Assembly: GCA_964503465.1 (NCBI GenBank)
Contig: CAZCYZ010000004.1
Span: forward strand, 16,235 to 80,234
Source of the DNA: an uncultured Gammaproteobacteria bacterium
Lineage (GTDB): Bacteria; Patescibacteriota; Microgenomatia; UBA12405
Reading direction: 5' to 3'
Length of the DNA stretch: 64,000 nt
Shown here piece by piece: positions 51,603-60,530 of this stretch (its first letter is position 1; each line of letters opens with the position of its first letter). The translations under genes were made by a program, and so were the position numbers. Below the pieces are notes generated by a model. It saw nothing but the letters and a program-made list of their open reading frames with translations, searched no databases and had not been told where the DNA came from.

Positions 51603-52520
51603 ATGGAACAGCATCCGATACCCCAACAGATAAGCTCGTATGAGTTCAAGCTGGTGGGAGAGATGACACTGAAGCAATTCTTGAAAGCGGCAGGAGGAAT
51701 AATACTGGCCTTATTAATTAACTCAACAAAATTAGTATTCTTTGTTAAGTGGCCGTTAATGTTGACTTTTGGAGCGGGTGGGTTGGCGCTGGCTTTTGTC
51801 CCATTTCAGGATAGGCCGCTGGAAACATGGGTAAAAGCTTTTATTAAATCAATATATTCACCAACGATATTTATCTATCATAAAGTGGCACCAAAGAACT
51901 GGTTGGATTTGGATCCGTCAAAAGTGATAGCTTTACCAAAGGAAGAAGAGGAAGAAGAAAAAACGTTACCAATAAAGGAAAAATCGAAGGTAAAGGAATT
52001 TATCGGATCACTACCATCGGTTAAAAGAGAAATACAAAAGGAAGAGATCAATGAACAGCCAACAGTGAACAGTAAGATAAAACCAGAAGAAATGGTCAAC
52101 AAAGACCAAATTGCGGTTGAAACAGTCAAGTCAACAGCAGGGATAGTGGTCGAAGATGAACAAAAAATAGAAAAGGCTGGTTTGGGGTTAAAAACACAAA
52201 AATTGGAGGCAACAGGTGAGGTGAAGTTTGGAAGTATTCCGATGCCCGATATACCGGAAATCCCAAACATCATTGTGGGGATGGTGATGAATACTCAGGG
52301 GAAAATCATTGAAGGAGCAATAATTGAAGTTCAAGATGAAAAAGGAAATCCAACCAGAGTGTTTAAAACAAATTCATTGGGTCAATTTAAAACATCGACA
52401 CCGCTAGCGAGTGGAAGATATTTGGTGGTAGTAGAAAAAGAGGGATTAAGTTTTGACCGAGTGAATATTGACCTTAAGGGAGAAATTGTTCAGCCAATTA
52501 AGGTGACAGCGACAGGATAG
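51603..52520 (+). CDS. PrgI/VirB3-like T4SS membrane protein with C-terminal transthyretin/CarboxypepD_reg-like domain
   Basis: IPQQISSYEFKLVGEMTLKQF followed by two TM helices matches the PrgI family. The C-terminus reads GKIIEGAIIEVQDEKGNPTRVFKTNSLGQFKT...GRYLVVVEKEG. Confidence 0.5.
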   Translation: MEQHPIPQQISSYEFKLVGEMTLKQFLKAAGGIILALLINSTKLVFFVKWPLMLTFGAGGLALAFVPFQDRPLETWVKAFIKSIYSPTIFIYHKVAPKNWLDLDPSKVIALPKEEEEEEKTLPIKEKSKVKEFIGSLPSVKREIQKEEINEQPTVNSKIKPEEMVNKDQIAVETVKSTAGIVVEDEQKIEKAGLGLKTQKLEATGEVKFGSIPMPDIPEIPNIIVGMVMNTQGKIIEGAIIEVQDEKGNPTRVFKTNSLGQFKTSTPLASGRYLVVVEKEGLSFDRVNIDLKGEIVQPIKVTATG

Positions 52521-52539
52521 AATGGGTTATTATTAATCT

Positions 52540-53229
52540 ATGGCGGTTGATCCACTGAAAGTAGCGATTAAGGGAACGACACAAGAACATCTTCCGATTG
52601 AGGATGTGGTGGAAGGGATAGTGATTCTAAAAGATGGATCGTGTGCAATGGTGGTGGCAATTTCGTCGGTAAACTTTGATTTACTGTCAGAGAGGGAACA
52701 ATCGGCTTTAATTTTTGCTTATGGAGGAATTCTTAACTCACTTAACTTCCCGGTTGAGATAGTAATCCGATCGGAGACCAAAGACGTAAGCTCTTACTTG
52801 AAAAGATTGTCTGAAGCCCAAGAAAAACAGACTAATCCCCTACTACGAGACAAAATTGCGTCTTATCGAAAATTTATTGAAGAGGTAGTTAAGAAAAACG
52901 ACGTCTTGGCAAAGAACTTTTACCTGGTAGTACCGTTTTCGATTCTTGAACTGGGAATCAAGAGTGCAACTAAAATGTTGCCAATAGGGAAAAGTGGTGG
53001 AGGGTTGCCGTATTCAAAAGAATATATTTTGGAAAAAGCGAGAGCTAGCCTTGAGCCTAAAAGAGATCATTTGATGAGATTGTTTGCCAGATTGGGACTG
53101 GAAGTGAAACCGTTAACAACAAAAGAGCTAATTGAGTTGTTCTACAAAATTTACAACGAAGAAACAGCAATGAACCAGAAGGTTCAATCACTTAATTATT
53201 CGGCACCAACGGTGACAACCAAGGCGTGA
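52540..53229 (+). CDS. VirB4/TrsE-family ATPase, N-terminal domain fragment (separated from the ATPase body by an in-frame TGA)
   Basis: LPIEDVVEGIVILKDGSCAMVVAISSVNFDLLSEREQSALIFAYGGILNSLNFPVEIVI matches Gram-positive VirB4 N-termini. The downstream ORF is in the same frame. Confidence 0.6.
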   Translation: MAVDPLKVAIKGTTQEHLPIEDVVEGIVILKDGSCAMVVAISSVNFDLLSEREQSALIFAYGGILNSLNFPVEIVIRSETKDVSSYLKRLSEAQEKQTNPLLRDKIASYRKFIEEVVKKNDVLAKNFYLVVPFSILELGIKSATKMLPIGKSGGGLPYSKEYILEKARASLEPKRDHLMRLFARLGLEVKPLTTKELIELFYKIYNEETAMNQKVQSLNYSAPTVTTKA

Positions 53230-53232
53230 TTT

Positions 53233-55845
53233 ATGAACATATTGAGTAAACTAATAAAGAAAAAAGAGGGAAAGGCGGAAGTGAAGCCCGTTGATAACCA
53301 GAGCAGTCAGACAAGCAAACCGTTTGTGGAGGGATTGGTGTCAACCAAAGATATTATTGCACCATCGGCTTTGGAGGTGGATTTTAATCATATTAGAGTA
53401 AACGAAAGATACTACCGAACTATCTTTGTGGCTGGATATCCAAGATTTGTGGGAATAAATTGGTTATCAAACTTAATCAATTTTGACGCCTCGTTGACAA
53501 CAGCGATGTACATTTACCCAACCGACGGCAAAGAAATATTGGATGATTTGCGAAGAAAGATTGCCGAAATGGAGGCAGAAATTAGTACTGATATGCAACG
53601 TGGAAGAGTAGTTAATCCGGCAACATCAGCCAAACTTGAAGACGCATTGAATTTACAGGCTGATTTGGTAAAAGGGGAAGAAAGATTTTTTCAGTTTGGA
53701 CTGTACGTAACCATTGGAACGGACTCAAAAGAGGAAGTAGAAAGGATAACAAAGAACTTGGAGGCGGGGTTGGGGGCGCTAATGATTATTAGCAAAAAAG
53801 CAACATTGCAGATGGAAGAGGGGTTTGTAACAACCCTACCGATATGCAGTGACAGGCTGCAAATAACTAGAAACATGGACACAACCTCGCTGGCAACCAC
53901 TTTTCCCTTTGTATCATCTGATTTATCGGATGATAAGGGAATAATGTATGGAATTAATGAGCATAACGGAAGTCTAGTGATCTTTGACCGATTTTCAATG
54001 CCAAATTACAATTCAGTGGTTTTTGCAACAGCCGGGGCAGGGAAATCGTATTTAATTAAACTTGAAGTATTGCGATCACTAATGCTAGGGACAGAGATAA
54101 TAGTAATTGATCCGGAAAATGAGTATAAGGATCTGTGTGAGGCGGTTGGGGGGCAATATATCGCGTTTGGTTATGGAGAGGCGTCAAAAATTAACCCGTT
54201 TGACTTGTCGCTGGTGGAAGAAGAGGGAGAAAACGCTTTAAACTCAAAAATTTTATCATTGCACAAGTTGTTTAAAATCATGCTGGGAGAAATGGATCCG
54301 ATTGAAGAATCGATACTCGATAAGGCGATAATGGATGCCTACAAGATGAAAGGGATAACTCCGGATCCGGAAAGTCAGAAAAAAGAGCCACCACTAATTG
54401 AGGATTTGTATAAGTCGTTGGTGGGGATGGAAGAGGAAAAGTCAAAAGGATTGGCGGCAAGACTGGAAAAATATATCAAGGGGTCGTTTGCGGGAATTTT
54501 TAACCAAAAAACAACAGTGAATTTGAACAACAAATTTGTGGTTTTTGGAATTAGAAACCTGGAGGATAGTTTGCGGCCGGTAGCAATGCATATAGTACTT
54601 GATCATATTTGGACAGTGGTTAAGAAAGATCTAAAAAGGAGAATTATGGTAGTGGATGAGGCTTGGTACTTGATGCAATATCCTGATTCAGCATCTTTCT
54701 TGAGGGGGATTGTGAAACGAGGGCGAAAATATTATTTGGGAGTGACGACAATTACTCAGGATGTGGATGATTTTCTGGAAACTCCGTTTGGAAAGGAAAT
54801 TGTAACGAATAGTGCGATTCAAATACTACTAAAGCAACACAGCGCAGCAATTGAACAGGTGGGAGAGGTGTTCTATTTGTCGGAAGGTGAGAAGCAATTA
54901 TTGCTGGCGGCCGACAAAGGAGAAGGAATATTCTTTGCTGGCCAGAACCATGTGGCTTTACGAGTGATTGCCTCGGAGGAAGAGCACAAACTGATAACTT
55001 CAAATCCAGAGGAGGTAATGAAGTGGAAAGCTCAAAAGTCGAGCCTGAAAACAGAAGAGTCAACTGTTAAGACTAAAGTGGAAATAAAACAGGCAGAACC
55101 AACAATAAATATTGTTGGTGATCAATCGACTAAACCGATAACAGGGACACAAGCACAGACAAACTTGCCGACAACGACATCAGTACCACCAACGACGGTG
55201 GTATCTCCACCAACGGGATTAATACCGACAACAAAACCGACACTGGAAGAACCGAAGGTGTTGTTTAAAGCGGAAGTAGTTGAAAACGAAACAGAAAAAG
55301 CATTGGGGGAAAAGATTAAACAAATGGAAGAAGAAGAGAAAAAAGAAATTGAGGCACATCAAAAAAAAGTCGAAGAGGAAAAAAAGAAGAAAGAGGAAGA
55401 AGAAAAGAAAAAATTATCAGGAACATTTAATGGATTTGGTGGTTCACCAATGGGAGGATTGCCGAAATACGGCGAGTTGTTTAAATCATCAAGTGCAGGA
55501 AAACTTCCACCGTTGCCACCATTACCACCGTTACCAAAGGTTCCAGCAAACCAGAACTCGCCACTGCCAAAATTTGAACCACCTAAAGCGATGGTGGCTG
55601 ACCCAATTTTAAGTAAACCGGCAATAGGTAAACCAATTTTTGTAAACCAGCCAGAACCAAAAATTCCTCAACCGCCACAATTTGCCAAAATCAAAAATCA
55701 AAATTCAAATACCCGCCTGTCGGACGGGCAGGTCAAAAATGAACAACAGGGAAGTCAAACCCAAAGTGATCAAAATAAAAAAAACTTAAGTTATGAGGAG
55801 CTGTTTGGTCCACCGGCTGGCGGAGGAGATAAGGGACAAAAATAG
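53233..55845 (+). CDS. VirB4/TrsE/CagE-family T4SS ATPase body with long Pro/Lys/Glu-rich C-terminal extension
   Basis: Walker A FATAGAGKSYLIK and the Walker B/VirB4 motif IMVVDEAWYLM. The C-terminal approximately 300 aa are low complexity (PPLPPLPPLP). Confidence 0.8.
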   Translation: MNILSKLIKKKEGKAEVKPVDNQSSQTSKPFVEGLVSTKDIIAPSALEVDFNHIRVNERYYRTIFVAGYPRFVGINWLSNLINFDASLTTAMYIYPTDGKEILDDLRRKIAEMEAEISTDMQRGRVVNPATSAKLEDALNLQADLVKGEERFFQFGLYVTIGTDSKEEVERITKNLEAGLGALMIISKKATLQMEEGFVTTLPICSDRLQITRNMDTTSLATTFPFVSSDLSDDKGIMYGINEHNGSLVIFDRFSMPNYNSVVFATAGAGKSYLIKLEVLRSLMLGTEIIVIDPENEYKDLCEAVGGQYIAFGYGEASKINPFDLSLVEEEGENALNSKILSLHKLFKIMLGEMDPIEESILDKAIMDAYKMKGITPDPESQKKEPPLIEDLYKSLVGMEEEKSKGLAARLEKYIKGSFAGIFNQKTTVNLNNKFVVFGIRNLEDSLRPVAMHIVLDHIWTVVKKDLKRRIMVVDEAWYLMQYPDSASFLRGIVKRGRKYYLGVTTITQDVDDFLETPFGKEIVTNSAIQILLKQHSAAIEQVGEVFYLSEGEKQLLLAADKGEGIFFAGQNHVALRVIASEEEHKLITSNPEEVMKWKAQKSSLKTEESTVKTKVEIKQAEPTINIVGDQSTKPITGTQAQTNLPTTTSVPPTTVVSPPTGLIPTTKPTLEEPKVLFKAEVVENETEKALGEKIKQMEEEEKKEIEAHQKKVEEEKKKKEEEEKKKLSGTFNGFGGSPMGGLPKYGELFKSSSAGKLPPLPPLPPLPKVPANQNSPLPKFEPPKAMVADPILSKPAIGKPIFVNQPEPKIPQPPQFAKIKNQNSNTRLSDGQVKNEQQGSQTQSDQNKKNLSYEELFGPPAGGGDKGQK

Positions 55846-55869
55846 AAACAGAATTGAGTATAATCAGAT

Positions 55870-58800
55870 GTGGTTGGCGTAAAAGAAAAAAAAAGGACAA
55901 ATTTGTTTGCCTTTGGTGATAATACTCCGGTAGCTTATGCAACAATTGGAGATCTAATTTCGGCACTCGAGGAATTAAGAGATATACGGGCTAGAGGAGA
56001 ATATGTGTATGATGCCCAATACGAAGATCTACGAAGAATGGTGGGGCGGGTGTTGGGAAGAGGCGATGTAAAACTTTTTGGGGAAATAAAAAAAGTTGAT
56101 GAATATATTTGGGACTTAAAAGCACTAGGAAATCCTGAAACACCAATTGCAGAAGAACCAGTGGTAGTGGAGACAGAGAAAGAGTTAGGGTCGAAAGCAG
56201 TAGACCCATATGTATTAAGACAATTACTGAGGGACTTGGATGAACACGAAGCAAAACTTGATTTGGAAGCGGAATCGGAAAGGTTGGGGAGAAGATATGG
56301 GGTACCAAAGCAAACAGTAAAGGATTTGATTGCTGAAAAACTGAAAATACAAGCTCGACTGAAAGAGGAATTGCTAAGAGAAAATCCAACAATGGAGCCA
56401 GAAATGGCAGAGATTGTAGCCGACGAACAGAGCGAAATGGAGATGGCGGTGAGGGCAGAGTTGGAAGAAGCAATGGTGGCGGGAGGACAAGTAGAGGAAG
56501 TAATAAGAGTCACAGAAGAGACGGTGGCAAAACTGGTGGAAGAGCCAGAGGCGGAATGGATACAGATAGAAAAGGAGGGTCTGAGGAAATTAAAATTAAC
56601 CGAAGCACAGCGGGAACAGATTAGGGAATTAATAGAAGAAGTAGCAATAGAAACCGTGGTGGCCCAGAAAACCGAAAAAACGGTTGAAGGGCTGTTAAAT
56701 AGAGTGGGGGAAGGAGAGTTATTACCAGGGGTGGTAATAAGTCCAACTTTGAAAGACGACTTGACGGAGATTGTGGAAACAGCAATAAACAATGACCCAA
56801 CAGCGGCGGAAATGGAGATGGTTCAGATGTTGGAAACGCAGGCTGGAAAAGTAATACCTGAGGCGGTGAAAGTGGAAGTAAGGGTGGCGGTAGCTGAAAT
56901 GAGACGATTTGGAGAGGAACACCCAAGAATAGCCGAAGAGCACGAGTTGATAGAGACAAGAAAAGAGGTGATAGCGGATTTTGTAGCGGTAAATGGAGAG
57001 TTGGACGAAGAACAAAGATCATTGGTGGAAGAATATGTGGATGGTTATGTCGGGTGGTGTAGAGCGATTGAGCCAATACGAATAAAAACAGAAGAGGTTG
57101 AGACAACAGATAAAGAAACGGAAGAATCAGAGGGGGGAGGGAGATTAACGAAGACGCAAATAGAACAAGGAATACCAAGAGTGGAAACACTAATGCGAGT
57201 AATAAGGACACCCCAAAATATTTATCAAAAATTGATAAATATCAGAACAAGATTGGAACGGGCCGGGGTGAAAGTTCCGGCGGTTTTTAACAAAAATATC
57301 CGATTCGAAACGTTTGAACGAATAAACAAGATGGTAATGGAAAACCCGGCGGTGGAGAAATTACTTTACTTTGCTCAAAAAAGAGAGGCCTTGGGGCTAG
57401 CAATACGGACTGGAGTAAGAGTGGCAGCGGTTAATACGCTATTAAAAATAGGGGCACCGGCGATGGCAGGAAAGGTGTTGGGCTGGGTTGGGGTTGAAAC
57501 TATTGGAAAATGGACCGTGGAGGGGTTTGTCAAGTTGTCATTGCGAGCAATAAGAAGATATGGAGTGGAGCAAGGGGTTGGTTTGATGATAAAAGCAGTG
57601 GCAACAAGGACAGCGGCAAAAATGGCGGCAGGGACGGTGGGAAAGGTGGCATTGGAAGCAGTAATAGTGGCCTTGGGAGGAGCAACGGGGCCTCCGGGAT
57701 GGGTAATAACACTAATACTAATAGGATTGGATATTGCCTGGCAGGCGGTGAAATTTGTTTTCAAAAGAGTAAAAGCATTTTTTGATAAAATTTCGGAAGG
57801 ATTGGGTCTTGACACTCCATGGCTTGACAGTTTGCTGAGAGACAATTTTGGAAAATTTGGAGGATCAATAGTAAAGAATGTGGGAACAATGGCAGCGATG
57901 GCAGTTGGCCTACTGGTGGCAATTCCAACAGCGTTAATGGCAATACCATCGACAATAATAGGATTAATAGTAGTACTAGTAATAGTGGTGCCATTGGTGG
58001 CTACCCAATTGTTGACAGCGCCGCAAGTAGCGATGCTGGTGCCACCACCAATGGGTGGAGGGTGTGTAAGAGTAATTGATGGCGCGGCAGAAAACGGAGA
58101 AGCAAACTGCCCAAGGGGGCTACCAGAACAGACGGCAGAGGGGGTAGACAGAGAAAACTATTTTAGATTGGCAGATCAGTGGAAGAGTGGTAAAAATCAT
58201 GCCAGAGAGTGCTTCGATGCAGTGGTGTGCAAGTCGAAAGCAGCAGGAATTCTGCCGGCTTGGTCGTTATGGGCCTGGTTGCATGAATCGGATGCAAGTA
58301 ATTATTCGCACGGGGAAGTAGAAGATTTTGGAATACACACTGGAGGGGTACCAAACAATGATTTCAATGCTCAACTAGAAAAGTTTTTGGAAATGGATCA
58401 TGGAGCATCGTGTGGTGGGGATTATTGGCTGGGGTTTGCGTCGATGTATTTGAATGGGACATGTGACCCAGACCAACCACATGTAACAAGTGGTCAAACA
58501 GGAAGACAATATTATGAGGAACTACAACAAACATGGGCCTGGGTAACAAACGGAGCACCACTACCAAACTCGATTCATGTATCACCAAGTGGAGGAAGTT
58601 GTGAGGGTGACACAAACCTAGCCAGAGGTGGAGTGCGAATAACGGATGAAAATGGACAAGAATGGTTGTGTGCTGATGAAGAAACGGCAGGAGGAATGAG
58701 TAATAGTATCGTAGCACCACCATGGGTACCAATGGGAGAGATCCCCGAAGGGTGTCCAAATAGGCTGCCGGCCAATAGCGGATACTTTACCCAAGGACCA

Positions 58801-59214
58801 TTTGCGCCTAACTGTAGTCATGAACACATGAGTTCGGCGGCGATCGATATTGGAATTGGAGGCGGATCGGAAATCGTAGCCACACATCCAGGAATAGTTA
58901 AGTTTGGTGAGAGTTATGATGCGATTTATGGTTATTATGTTGACGTGTTGGGTAAATGTGAGGGGAAAGAGTTCTTTACTAGATATGCTCACATGCCAAG
59001 TTTTCCGAATATTCAAAATGGAGCGCAAGTAAATGCAGGAGATTACATTGGGCAGGTTGACACTACGGGCTCATCAACAGGGAACCATATTCACTATCAC
59101 ATTAACGGGCTGGACAAATCTTATTTTGGACAATATTTGGGGTTGGATGAGGCGACAACGGCACAATTGTGGGGATGTTGTGGAGTGGAATGGAATGGAA
59201 AAGCCTGTCCCTGA
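55870..59214 (+). CDS. giant T4SS-associated protein: acidic coiled-coil N-region, polytopic TM block, C-terminal M23 (LytM-like) peptidoglycan peptidase
   Basis: C-terminus FTRYAHMPS...GDYIGQVDTTGSSTGNHIHYHI matches the M23 YAHL...G.TG.STGPHLHFE block. An upstream WLHESDASNYSHG may be lysozyme/SLT-like. About 6 TM between aa 480 and 720. Confidence 0.65.
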   Translation: MVGVKEKKRTNLFAFGDNTPVAYATIGDLISALEELRDIRARGEYVYDAQYEDLRRMVGRVLGRGDVKLFGEIKKVDEYIWDLKALGNPETPIAEEPVVVETEKELGSKAVDPYVLRQLLRDLDEHEAKLDLEAESERLGRRYGVPKQTVKDLIAEKLKIQARLKEELLRENPTMEPEMAEIVADEQSEMEMAVRAELEEAMVAGGQVEEVIRVTEETVAKLVEEPEAEWIQIEKEGLRKLKLTEAQREQIRELIEEVAIETVVAQKTEKTVEGLLNRVGEGELLPGVVISPTLKDDLTEIVETAINNDPTAAEMEMVQMLETQAGKVIPEAVKVEVRVAVAEMRRFGEEHPRIAEEHELIETRKEVIADFVAVNGELDEEQRSLVEEYVDGYVGWCRAIEPIRIKTEEVETTDKETEESEGGGRLTKTQIEQGIPRVETLMRVIRTPQNIYQKLINIRTRLERAGVKVPAVFNKNIRFETFERINKMVMENPAVEKLLYFAQKREALGLAIRTGVRVAAVNTLLKIGAPAMAGKVLGWVGVETIGKWTVEGFVKLSLRAIRRYGVEQGVGLMIKAVATRTAAKMAAGTVGKVALEAVIVALGGATGPPGWVITLILIGLDIAWQAVKFVFKRVKAFFDKISEGLGLDTPWLDSLLRDNFGKFGGSIVKNVGTMAAMAVGLLVAIPTALMAIPSTIIGLIVVLVIVVPLVATQLLTAPQVAMLVPPPMGGGCVRVIDGAAENGEANCPRGLPEQTAEGVDRENYFRLADQWKSGKNHARECFDAVVCKSKAAGILPAWSLWAWLHESDASNYSHGEVEDFGIHTGGVPNNDFNAQLEKFLEMDHGASCGGDYWLGFASMYLNGTCDPDQPHVTSGQTGRQYYEELQQTWAWVTNGAPLPNSIHVSPSGGSCEGDTNLARGGVRITDENGQEWLCADEETAGGMSNSIVAPPWVPMGEIPEGCPNRLPANSGYFTQGPFAPNCSHEHMSSAAIDIGIGGGSEIVATHPGIVKFGESYDAIYGYYVDVLGKCEGKEFFTRYAHMPSFPNIQNGAQVNAGDYIGQVDTTGSSTGNHIHYHINGLDKSYFGQYLGLDEATTAQLWGCCGVEWNGKACP

Positions 59215-59232
59215 TAGCGTAAACTAGAGAAG

Positions 59233-60186
59233 ATGAGGAACAAAAAAGTGGTGGTCATAACAATGCTAGCGGTAGTGGTGGTGTTGGCGATAATTAGTTT
59301 GATGGCGAGGAAGAAAAACGGAGGACAAAAAGAAACACCAGTGGCGATGCCAACAGTAATCAGAAAAAGATTACCAACAAAGTTTGACTTTTCACAACCA
59401 AAAAGTATTGGCTGGAACTTTAAAGAACCAAACAGAGTGGAAAAAATAGACAAGTTGGCGATAGAGAAAGCTGCAATTAACCTTCAAATAATAAAAAAAA
59501 TGTTGGCAATAGTGGGCTTAAATGAGGGTCAGAAAACTTTGGAAAAAAATGGATTAATAAACTTTGGTGACGGAAAAAATAAAAGCGCTTATTTTGACGT
59601 ATATAACAATAAGTTTAGCTATAGCGAGATAATTAGTAGTCGTGATCAGATAAAAGACAAGGGCGAACCGATGGCGGGTGATTGGGAAAACAAAATTAGA
59701 AAGACAATGGGATTGGAAGGGGTAGAAATCAGGGTGGTGTCAAGAGAATATAAGAAGATTGTTAACCCAAGGTGGGTAACAACAACCGAGAGCGAAGCGG
59801 AGGCAACGGAAATCAGGGCTAATTACTATTGGGGTGATTATCCCCTACTGGGTTTTGCGGGCGAACCGATGACAGTATTAGTGTCAAAGACTGGAAGAAT
59901 ATTGAAGATGGAGGTAGAGATACTTGGTAAAGTGACGATGAATGAAGAGACAGAATTGATAACAGGTGAAGATCTAAAAAAAATTGGGGCAAGTGGAGCG
60001 TGGCTGTGGAAGGTTGATGGAGATACGGAAAACGAAGACGTGGGGGCGGTGACAATAACTGGGGTGAGTTTGGGGTATATTTACAACCCAGAGGGAGTGG
60101 TGGGAGCATATTGGATAGGAGAAGGAAATGGAATATTGGGATCAAAACCAGTAAAAGTTAAAGTGATCGTACCAGCAGAAAAATGA
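59233..60186 (+). CDS. bitopic membrane protein (N-terminal TM plus extracytoplasmic domain), possible VirB8-like
   Basis: MRNKKVVVITMLAVVVVLAIISL anchor; operonic with the T4SS genes. Confidence 0.3.
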   Translation: MRNKKVVVITMLAVVVVLAIISLMARKKNGGQKETPVAMPTVIRKRLPTKFDFSQPKSIGWNFKEPNRVEKIDKLAIEKAAINLQIIKKMLAIVGLNEGQKTLEKNGLINFGDGKNKSAYFDVYNNKFSYSEIISSRDQIKDKGEPMAGDWENKIRKTMGLEGVEIRVVSREYKKIVNPRWVTTTESEAEATEIRANYYWGDYPLLGFAGEPMTVLVSKTGRILKMEVEILGKVTMNEETELITGEDLKKIGASGAWLWKVDGDTENEDVGAVTITGVSLGYIYNPEGVVGAYWIGEGNGILGSKPVKVKVIVPAEK

Positions 60187-60530
60187 AAAAATATGGATTG
60201 GTAATATGGCTGATGATGGTAGTAGTAACAATGGCGGTGGTTAAGTGGCGTTATGGGTCGTCGAGAGGTGAAGAGGTGGTTCAAATAACACCAACACCGA
60301 CACCAATAATGGAGCCAACGACATCAATTAAAGAAGAGGATTACCCATTGTGGAAACTGCTCCCCTACTCGGGAGTGGGTTTTACGGTCGACAGATATAT
60401 AGAGCCATTGACATTGGTGGTGCTAATTAAAGGATTGGATAAACAAATTGTGACTGAAGAGATTGGAAAATGGATGGAGGAAAACGGGGTGAATCCAGAA
60501 ACACATAAGATAGTAATTAGTAATCAGTGA
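60183..60530 (+). CDS. small bitopic membrane protein
   Basis: N-terminal TM; overlaps the upstream stop. Confidence 0.35.
   Translation: MKKYGLVIWLMMVVVTMAVVKWRYGSSRGEEVVQITPTPTPIMEPTTSIKEEDYPLWKLLPYSGVGFTVDRYIEPLTLVVLIKGLDKQIVTEEIGKWMEENGVNPETHKIVISNQ

What the first reader, a model, noticed from the sequence alone, without database searches (positions are those of the whole stretch)
53221..53238. VirB4 ATPase interrupted by a single in-frame TGA
ORF 52540-53229 (Gram-positive VirB4 N-domain) and ORF 53233-55845 (Walker A/B, DEAW) are in the same frame, separated only by TGA-TTT-ATG. TGA is a genuine stop elsewhere in the window (for example dinB and the VirB4 N-fragment), so code 25 is excluded. 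Possibilities are programmed readthrough, a sequencing or assembly error, a recent nonsense mutation (incipient pseudogene), or a deliberate two-piece VirB4.
Basis: seen in the sequence. Interest (0 to 1): 0.55.

Follow-up and report, generated by a model that had tools for sequence, protein, structure and literature searches.

The report
Ordinary two-gene trsD–virB4 pair
The "interrupted" secretion ATPase is two normal neighbouring genes (trsD and virB4) that are separate in almost all relatives, so the in-frame stop codon between them is a coincidence and nothing is broken or recoded.

Summary
ORF 52540-53229 ends in TGA, TTT follows, and ATG at 53233 opens an 870-aa ORF in the same frame. 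The "interrupted VirB4" reading is not supported.

- **ORF1 is a free-standing TrsD/TraD-type protein** (Pfam PF26593, TraC-like). This small protein is homologous to the first ~200 residues of single-chain VirB4.
- **ORF2 is the rest of VirB4.** Profile matches to the two ORFs are colinear and do not overlap: CD1110 VirB4 model positions 2-114 and 184-733.
- **About 900 homologues of ORF1 were found.** The best 120 are all 223-250 aa.
- **78 distinct orthologous junctions all have a stop and a separate virB4 start.** Stops are TAA 41, TGA 31 and TAG 6. virB4 is in frame in only 8 of 78. ATGA overlap is the commonest layout.
- **The closest comparable relatives differ at the junction.** They show TAA + 79 nt, TAG + 34 nt, or an ATGA overlap.
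- **No RNA structure follows the TGA.**
- **The same split at the same point occurs in staphylococcal pSK41/pGO1-type plasmids** (traD-traE).
- **The trsD-virB4 pairing is already published** as the most widespread type IV secretion (T4SS) feature of Patescibacteria (PMC12102498).

A sister clade carries naturally fused versions. Low interest; already known.

The parts
51603..52520 (+). First gene of the T4SS block: PrgI/VirB3-like membrane protein with a C-terminal CarboxypepD_reg domain (305 aa)
   Evidence: Pfam PrgI 9.5e-07 (29.7 bits, cut-off 27) and CarboxypepD_reg 1.1e-07. One hydrophobic segment at aa 29-47. The same gene precedes trsD in orthologous loci L002, L085 and L086.
52540..53229 (+). 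trsD/traD-type gene (229 aa). A free-standing homologue of the N-terminal ~200 residues of single-chain VirB4.
   Evidence: NCBIfam TrsD/TraD 3.4e-10; N-terminal positions 2-114/752 of the CD1110 VirB4 model. Precomputed Pfam PF26593 TraC-like. About 900 homologues, the best 120 all 223-250 aa. hhalign to S. aureus plasmid TraD: 95.5% probability, E 1.6e-8, 176 columns. For the AlphaFold model, the 14 best PDB matches are all R388 TrwK/VirB4.
53227..53229 (+). TGA stop codon of trsD
   Evidence: Read directly. Orthologues have TAA (41), TGA (31) or TAG (6) at the end of trsD. The following base is U.
53230..53232 (+). 3-nt spacer TTT between the two genes
   Evidence: Spacer length varies from a 4-nt overlap to more than 100 nt among orthologues.
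53233..55845 (+). virB4 (870 aa). It holds the remainder of the VirB4 N-terminal domain, the ATPase domain (Walker A at 54034-54048, Walker B at 54649-54666) and a ~280-aa K/P/E-rich C-terminal tail.
   Evidence: NCBIfam conju_CD1110 1.8e-113, 380 bits (cut-off 325), model positions 184-733/752. Pfam P-loop_TraG, AAA_10, DUF87. PDB 4ag5 VirB4 3.9e-52. The N-terminus MNILSKLIKKK matches the orthologue start MNLLGKLKKK. It aligns with the S. aureus plasmid VirB4 from residue 53 to 47.
55870..59214 (+). 1114-aa protein with a central cluster of hydrophobic segments and a C-terminal M23 peptidase domain. Probable cell-wall hydrolase of the system (VirB1-like role).
   Evidence: Pfam Peptidase_M23 3.3e-14. 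Hydrophobic segments at aa 585-723. An M23 peptidase follows virB4 in L002, L085 and the Pontibacillus plasmid.
59233..60530 (+). Two further genes of the block (317 aa and 115 aa), each with an N-terminal hydrophobic segment and no family match
   Evidence: Their membership of the system is inferred only from position and strand.

Best explanation
These are two separate, normally terminated and normally initiated genes of a chromosomal type IV secretion locus in a Patescibacteria bacterium (Microgenomates, close to Ca. Shapirobacteria). The upstream gene is trsD/traD and the downstream gene is virB4. TrsD corresponds to the first ~200 residues of the N-terminal domain of single-chain VirB4 ATPases. 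The virB4 gene encodes the rest of that domain plus the ATPase domain.

The two are made as separate polypeptides. Translation of trsD ends at UGA, and virB4 starts 3 nt later at its own AUG. This is probably translational coupling on one operon mRNA, which would give matched amounts (inferred). The two proteins presumably assemble non-covalently into a VirB4-like unit that docks on the VirB3/PrgI-like membrane protein encoded just upstream. That step is inferred by analogy with R388, where the VirB4 N-terminal domain contacts VirB3.

The shared reading frame is a coincidence of spacer length.
For: - **Complementary pieces.** ORF1 hits positions 2-114 and ORF2 positions 184-733 of the 752-position CD1110 VirB4 model. 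On the mycoplasma VirB4 model the hits are 104-233 and 268-893.
- **ORF1 is a family of its own.** It hits TrsD/TraD and PF26593. About 900 homologues were found and the best 120 are all 223-250 aa. The exhaustive search found 2130 hits.
- **Orthologous junctions are split.** All 78 distinct junctions have a stop and a separate start: TAA 41, TGA 31, TAG 6. Relative frames are +2 in 43, +1 in 27 and 0 in 8. ATGA overlap occurs in 21 and TAAnATG in 10.
- **The closest comparable relatives differ at the junction.** 83% identity: TAA + 79 nt. 83% identity: TAG + 34 nt. 80% identity: ATGA overlap.
- **Same split point in Firmicutes.** An S. aureus pSK41-type plasmid has traD (223 aa) directly upstream of a 670-aa VirB4. 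hhalign gives 95.5% probability. The two VirB4 pieces align from residue 53 to 47. A Pontibacillus plasmid has the same TrsD-like / VirB4 / M23 order.
- **Fold.** For the TrsD model, the 14 best PDB matches are all TrwK/VirB4. A naturally fused relative aligns with full-length TrwK over 700-800 columns.
- **Literature.** TrsD is the most abundant T4SS component in Patescibacteria. 1,664 of 2,272 homologues lie next to virB4, and it is described as a remote homologue of the VirB4 N-terminus (PMC12102498).
Against: - Nothing in the data contradicts two separate genes.
- The physical TrsD-VirB4 interaction and the translational coupling are inferred, not shown. The Shine-Dalgarno-like signal before the ATG is weak (AAGG, 8 nt upstream).
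- The NCBIfam TrsD hit (40 bits) is far below that model's curated cut-off (200), so the relation to the staphylococcal subfamily is remote.
- The AlphaFold models have only moderate confidence (pLDDT 66 and 60), and the TM-scores to TrwK are low (0.3-0.4).
- The closest relative (90% identity, L084) shares TGA-TTT-ATG at the stop. Its contig ends 28 nt later, so its virB4 start and frame cannot be read.
Confidence: 0.95

Rival explanations
1. Programmed readthrough or recoding of the UGA (including selenocysteine) yields a single ~1100-aa VirB4.
For: The two ORFs are in frame with one stop between them. Naturally fused TrsD-VirB4 proteins exist in related lineages, so a fusion would probably fold.
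Against: - In-frame arrangement is not conserved: 8 of 78 orthologues, fewer than chance.
- The stop is TAA or TAG in the 83%-identical relatives.
- No stable structure lies downstream: MFE -7.7 kcal/mol against a shuffle mean of -9.65, z = +0.79.
- No tRNA-Sec, and indeed no tRNA at all, is in the window.
- ORF2 has its own conserved ATG and N-terminus.
- From general knowledge, UGA followed by U is an efficient termination context in bacteria.
Confidence: 0.02
2. A recent nonsense mutation has split a formerly intact VirB4 (an incipient pseudogene).
For: Fused forms exist in a sister clade of Microgenomates. Fused and split states interleave on a rough tree.
Against: - Every Shapirobacteria-type relative from 90% down to about 45% identity has a free-standing TrsD of about 230 aa.
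- The C-terminal tail ...NYSAPTVTTK* is conserved as a protein end.
- Both genes are intact and conserved, and virB4 has its own conserved start.
- The same split point occurs in Firmicutes plasmids.
Confidence: 0.01
3. A sequencing or assembly error created a false stop.
For: The window comes from a metagenome assembly. Reads could not be inspected.
Against: The identical 229-aa product is on record from two assemblies, an NCBI contig and a Logan assembly of SRR8925802. They may derive from the same reads. The stop falls exactly where all orthologues stop, so no error needs to be invoked.
Confidence: 0.01
4. TGA is a sense codon (genetic code 25 or 4) in this organism.
For: Some Patescibacteria (Gracilibacteria, Absconditabacteria) use code 25 (general knowledge).
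Against: With TGA as a stop, the window is densely filled with long ORFs, and 22 of the 78 ORFs of at least 150 aa end in TGA. Orthologues replace this TGA with TAA or TAG. Relatives are Shapirobacteria/Microgenomates, not code-25 lineages.
Confidence: 0.005

Closest known systems
TrsD-VirB4 gene pair of Patescibacteria T4SS loci (Quinonero-Coronel et al. 2025, PMC12102498)
   Same: Same phylum and same gene order: PrgI/VirB3-like, TrsD, VirB4. TrsD is described there as a remote homologue of the VirB4 N-terminus, with 1,664 of 2,272 homologues lying next to virB4. The window's locus is one more instance.
   Different: Nothing substantive. That paper does not mention TrsD-VirB4 fusion proteins, which I found in a sister clade. 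It reports that VirB3 homologues are less often adjacent to virB4 in Microgenomatia, whereas here one is adjacent.
TrsD/TrsE of pGO1 and TraD/TraE of pSK41-type staphylococcal conjugative plasmids (NCBIfam NF041427)
   Same: A free-standing ~220-aa protein is encoded immediately upstream of a ~670-aa VirB4. Homology runs over almost the full length (hhalign 95.5% probability, E 1.6e-8). The VirB4 pieces begin at the equivalent residue.
   Different: Only about 24-28% identity. The NCBIfam score of 40 bits is far below the subfamily cut-off of 200. The setting is plasmid conjugation in Firmicutes rather than a chromosomal, probably non-conjugative system in an epibiont. The window's VirB4 has an extra 280-aa low-complexity tail.
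Single-chain VirB4 ATPases (CD1110 family of Firmicutes ICEs; TrwK of R388; F-plasmid TraC)
   Same: ORF1 plus ORF2 are colinear with the whole protein. The folds match TrwK. ORF2 has Walker A and B motifs and exceeds the CD1110 cut-off (380 against 325 bits).
   Different: Here the first ~200 residues are a separate polypeptide.
Naturally fused TrsD-VirB4 of other Microgenomates (for example Ca. Amesbacteria P0314; L078 1877-4381)
   Same: 48-51% identity in the TrsD part and the same domain order.
   Different: One ORF of 780-900 aa. The TrsD C-terminal tail and the VirB4 N-terminal leader (about 38 residues in the window) are replaced by a shorter linker.

Membership tests
TrsD/TraD family (PF26593 TraC-like; NCBIfam NF041427) | Significant match to the family profile | tested here: met
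   PF26593 is the precomputed Pfam hit for the exact protein and for all 120 best homologues. hhalign of the family alignment against S. aureus TraD gives 95.5% probability and E 1.6e-8 over 176 columns.
TrsD/TraD family (PF26593 TraC-like; NCBIfam NF041427) | Score above NCBIfam's curated cut-off for the staphylococcal/enterococcal subfamily | tested here: not met
   40.1 bits against a cut-off of 200. It is a remote relative of that subfamily, not a member of it in NCBI's narrow sense.
TrsD/TraD family (PF26593 TraC-like; NCBIfam NF041427) | Free-standing protein of about 200-250 aa encoded directly upstream of virB4 on the same strand | tested here: met
   229 aa, with virB4 starting 3 nt after the stop. 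The layout is the same in 78 orthologous loci and in the S. aureus plasmid.
TrsD/TraD family (PF26593 TraC-like; NCBIfam NF041427) | Homology to the N-terminal part of single-chain VirB4 | tested here: met
   CD1110 model positions 2-114; VirB4_plasma positions 104-233. P0091 hits TraC_F_IV positions 14-189. The 14 best Foldseek matches are all TrwK/VirB4.
VirB4 ATPase (ORF2) | Match above the curated cut-off; Walker A and Walker B motifs | tested here: met
   conju_CD1110 380.3 bits against a cut-off of 325. GAGKS at aa 268-272 and VVDEAW at aa 473-478. PDB 4ag5 E 3.9e-52.
VirB4 ATPase (ORF2) | Complete N-terminal domain within one polypeptide | tested here: not met
   ORF2 starts at model position 184 of 752. 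Positions 2-114 are supplied by ORF1.
Programmed stop-codon readthrough / selenocysteine recoding | In-frame UGA conserved in orthologues | tested here: not met
   8 of 78 junctions are in frame. Stops are TAA 41, TGA 31, TAG 6.
Programmed stop-codon readthrough / selenocysteine recoding | Stable stem-loop (SECIS or readthrough stimulator) just downstream of the stop | tested here: not met
   z-score +0.79; 159 of 200 shuffles fold at least as well.
Programmed stop-codon readthrough / selenocysteine recoding | Presence of tRNA-Sec, SelA and SelB in the genome | not testable with these tools
   Only the 64-kb window is available, and no tRNA gene was found in it.
Pseudogene by nonsense mutation | Close relatives carry an uninterrupted gene, and the downstream piece lacks its own conserved start | tested here: not met
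   Relatives at 80-90% identity all have a free-standing TrsD. The virB4 N-terminus MN(I/L)L..K is conserved.

The most novel reading that the evidence does not exclude
The in-frame, single-stop, 3-nt junction may be a transitional state in a recurring fusion/fission cycle between trsD and virB4 in Microgenomates. Low-level leaky readthrough of this UGA would then yield a minor fused isoform with the architecture that a sister clade (Amesbacteria-like, at least 50 protein clusters) encodes outright. One point mutation would complete the fusion.
Probability: 0.04. Interest if true: 0.35.

Novelty: already known. Interest (0 to 1): 0.1.

Why it matters
It matters mainly as a negative result. The locus should be annotated as two genes (trsD and virB4), not as a pseudogene, a recoding site or an assembly error.

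For T4SS biology it is one more example that the first ~200 residues of VirB4 are a separable module. The module is split at the same point in staphylococcal plasmids and in most Patescibacteria, and is fused in others. That supports treating TrsD as part of the VirB4 motor when modelling monoderm T4SS, which is reported to be essential for the epibiotic life of the one Patescibacterium tested (PMC12102498, citing Wang et al. 2023).

Tried and rejected
- **Local Pfam scan of ORF1** found nothing at E <= 0.01. At E <= 10 it gave only a weak TraC_F_IV hit. The local copy appears to lack PF26593, which the precomputed annotations report.
- **phmmer of ORF1 against PDB sequences** gave only a spurious designed-repeat hit. 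The relation to VirB4 is visible only by profile or fold.
- **SECIS or readthrough stem-loop** was rejected.
- **Genetic code 25** was rejected.
- **The main text of Guglielmini et al. 2014 (PMC4027160)** does not mention TrsD by name. The statement on TrsD-VirB4 homology is therefore cited from PMC12102498 and from my own tests.
- **A whole-word literature search for 'TrsD'** returned almost only unrelated acronyms.
- **The AlphaFold model of the fused relative** was poor in the ATPase domain (pLDDT 60). I use only the identity and extent of its PDB matches, not its geometry.
- **The NJ tree of fused against split VirB4** (9 state changes) has no support values. It is only a hint of repeated fusion/fission.
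Full report
**Observation.** The window reads ...ACC AAG GCG TGA TTT ATG AAC ATA... around 53227. The ORF finder lists 52540-53229 (229 aa) and 53233-55845 (870 aa, ATG start). They share a frame, and continuous translation of 52540-55845 has a single internal stop, at codon 230. ORF2 has Walker A (GAGKS, aa 268-272) and Walker B (VVDEAW, aa 473-478).

**What the two ORFs are.** ORF2 exceeds the curated cut-off of the NCBIfam model 'VirB4-like conjugal transfer ATPase, CD1110 family' (380 bits against 325). The match covers only model positions 184-733 of 752. ORF1 matches 'TrsD/TraD family conjugative transfer protein' (E 3.4e-10). It also matches the missing N-terminal positions of two single-chain VirB4 models: CD1110 positions 2-114, and mycoplasma VirB4 positions 104-233 where ORF2 takes 268-893. 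The two ORFs are thus complementary, colinear pieces of what is one protein elsewhere.

The exact ORF1 protein and all its close homologues carry the precomputed Pfam domain PF26593 'TraC-like'. My local Pfam copy lacks that model.

An AlphaFold model of ORF1 has pLDDT 66, with a core of 70-90. Its 14 best PDB matches are all TrwK/VirB4 chains of the R388 T4SS (Foldseek probability 0.99-1.0); the next hit has E 0.2.

**Is the split real and old?**
- A word-indexed search found about 900 homologues of ORF1. The best 120 (67-100% identity) are all 223-250 aa and come mostly from Ca. Shapirobacteria and Microgenomates MAGs.
- An exhaustive search of 1.8 billion cluster representatives found 2130 hits. 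Among the 150 listed, nearly all carry the domain at their N-terminus. Many have long Q/P/S/N-rich disordered C-terminal tails, which is incompatible with their being mere fragments of VirB4.
- I fetched 80 related loci from species-representative genomes and several closer ones by exact-protein look-up. I then tabulated the trsD-virB4 junction by tblastn.
- Among 78 distinct junctions other than the window, every one has a stop and a separate virB4 ORF.
  - Stop codons are TAA 41, TGA 31 and TAG 6.
  - The frame of virB4 relative to trsD is +2 in 43, +1 in 27 and 0 in 8.
  - The commonest layouts are a 4-nt ATGA overlap (21) and TAAnATG (10).
- In-frame junctions are rarer than the 1/3 expected by chance, so there is no selection for a shared frame.
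- The nearest comparable relatives already differ. At 83% identity, L085 has TAA plus a 79-nt spacer and L086 has TAG plus 34 nt. At 80% identity, L002 has an ATGA overlap.
- The 90%-identical relative L084 also reads TGA-TTT-ATG, but its contig ends 28 nt later inside a TTTATGA repeat, so its virB4 start is unknown.
- The virB4 N-terminus (MNILSKLIKKK) is conserved as a start in relatives.

**Recoding and error.**
- The 86 nt around and after the stop fold no better than shuffles (z = +0.79).
- The window holds no tRNA gene.
- TGA ends 22 of the 78 ORFs of at least 150 aa in the window.
- The identical 229-aa protein is on record from an NCBI contig and from an independent Logan assembly of SRR8925802.
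- From general knowledge, UGA followed by U is a good termination context in bacteria.

**Relation to known systems.** The 2025 survey of Patescibacteria T4SS reports TrsD as the most abundant T4SS component of the phylum. It counts 2,272 homologues, 1,664 of them next to virB4. It describes TrsD as a remote homologue of the VirB4 N-terminal portion, otherwise known only from the pGO1 subclass of Firmicutes systems. It also notes that the TrsD homologue of Ca. S. epibionticum is listed as essential (PMC12102498).

I checked the Firmicutes parallel directly.
- tblastn of ORF1 against plasmids finds an S. aureus plasmid whose annotated traD (223 aa) lies directly upstream of a 670-aa DUF87/VirB4 gene.
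- hhalign of the TrsD alignment against that TraD gives 95.5% probability over 176 columns.
- The two VirB4 pieces align from residue 53 to 47 onward, so the break point is equivalent.
- A Pontibacillus plasmid shows the same order of TrsD-like, VirB4 (CD1110 family) and M23 peptidase, as in the window.

**Fused relatives.** One of the 80 loci (L078) and one representative (P0169) encode a single ORF with TrsD and VirB4 joined. A search with the L078 protein shows a whole clade of such fusions: 52 of 119 sampled sequences, 723-897 aa, including a Ca. Amesbacteria protein. In them the poorly conserved TrsD tail and VirB4 leader (about 38 residues in the window) are replaced by a shorter linker. 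The model of the fused protein aligns with full-length TrwK over 700-800 columns. On a rough NJ tree of the ATPase core, fused and split states interleave, with 9 parsimony changes. This hints at repeated fusion or fission, but the tree is unsupported.

**Mechanism.**
- Shown: two genes, each conserved as a unit, colinear with one VirB4.
- Inferred: they are co-transcribed in an operon running 51603-60530. That operon comprises the PrgI/VirB3-like gene, trsD, virB4, the M23 hydrolase gene and two small genes for membrane-anchored proteins. No plus-strand terminator-like site lies in trsD or at the trsD-virB4 junction.
- Inferred: they are translationally coupled, given the 3-nt spacer here and the ATGA or TAAnATG layouts in relatives.
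- Inferred: they assemble non-covalently into a VirB4-like motor on the membrane through the VirB3-like protein, by analogy with R388.

**Verdict.** This is an ordinary, already described two-gene arrangement. The in-frame TGA is a coincidence. Interest is low.

Noticed in passing
window 55000-55845 (VirB4 aa ~590-870): VirB4 carries a ~280-aa low-complexity K/P/E-rich C-terminal tail that includes a PPLPPLPPLP run. This is unusual for a cytoplasmic T4SS ATPase. In other Patescibacteria the TrsD homologue carries Q/P/S/N-rich tails of 100-490 aa instead.
   Followed up: partly
L084 4194-4221; also the trsD-virB4 spacers of L011, L021, L023, L026, L029, L054, L085 and L086: The trsD-virB4 spacer in many orthologues is filled with short AT-rich tandem repeats. 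Examples are TTTATGA about 4 times at the contig end of the 90% relative, AATCTTC 5 times in L026, and TTAGACA/TTAGAAA in L054. The window has a single TTTATGA copy spanning spacer and start. Their function, if any, is unknown.
   Followed up: partly
L078 1877-4381; proteins P0271-P0322, P0169, P0314: A clade of Microgenomates (including Ca. Amesbacteria) encodes TrsD and VirB4 as one fused 780-900-aa protein. The 2025 Patescibacteria T4SS survey does not mention such fusions. Fused and split forms interleave on a rough tree.
   Followed up: partly
protein P0290 (1429 aa): A fused TrsD-VirB4 relative contains intein and homing-endonuclease domains (PF14890, PF14528), so it is an intein-bearing VirB4.
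   Followed up: no
window 1-64000: ARAGORN finds no tRNA or tmRNA gene anywhere in the 64-kb window.
   Followed up: no
plasmid hits H8, H10-H12, H21, H22: TrsD-like proteins (22-25% identity over 86-95% of the query) are encoded on haloarchaeal plasmids (Halobellus, Haloplanus, Halorientalis, Haloglomus, Halarchaeum, Halobaculum). The free-standing module therefore also occurs in Archaea.
   Followed up: no
L002 4696-7313 (GCA_964512535.1): In the 80%-identical orthologous locus, virB4 is called as three pieces (477 + 32 + 344 aa). This suggests frameshifts or assembly errors in that genome's virB4.
   Followed up: no
L061, L064, L081: Three trsD homologues (45-49% identity) have no recognisable virB4 within about 3.9 kb downstream. 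This fits the published observation that about a quarter of TrsD genes are not adjacent to virB4.
   Followed up: no
record titles of L006, L010, L012, L018 and others; L071; L047: Many MAGs that carry this Patescibacteria-type trsD-virB4 locus are labelled 'uncultured Gammaproteobacteria'. One is labelled 'Bathyarchaeia archaeon' and one 'Nevskiaceae'. These are probably taxonomic mislabels or bin contamination in the public records.
   Followed up: no
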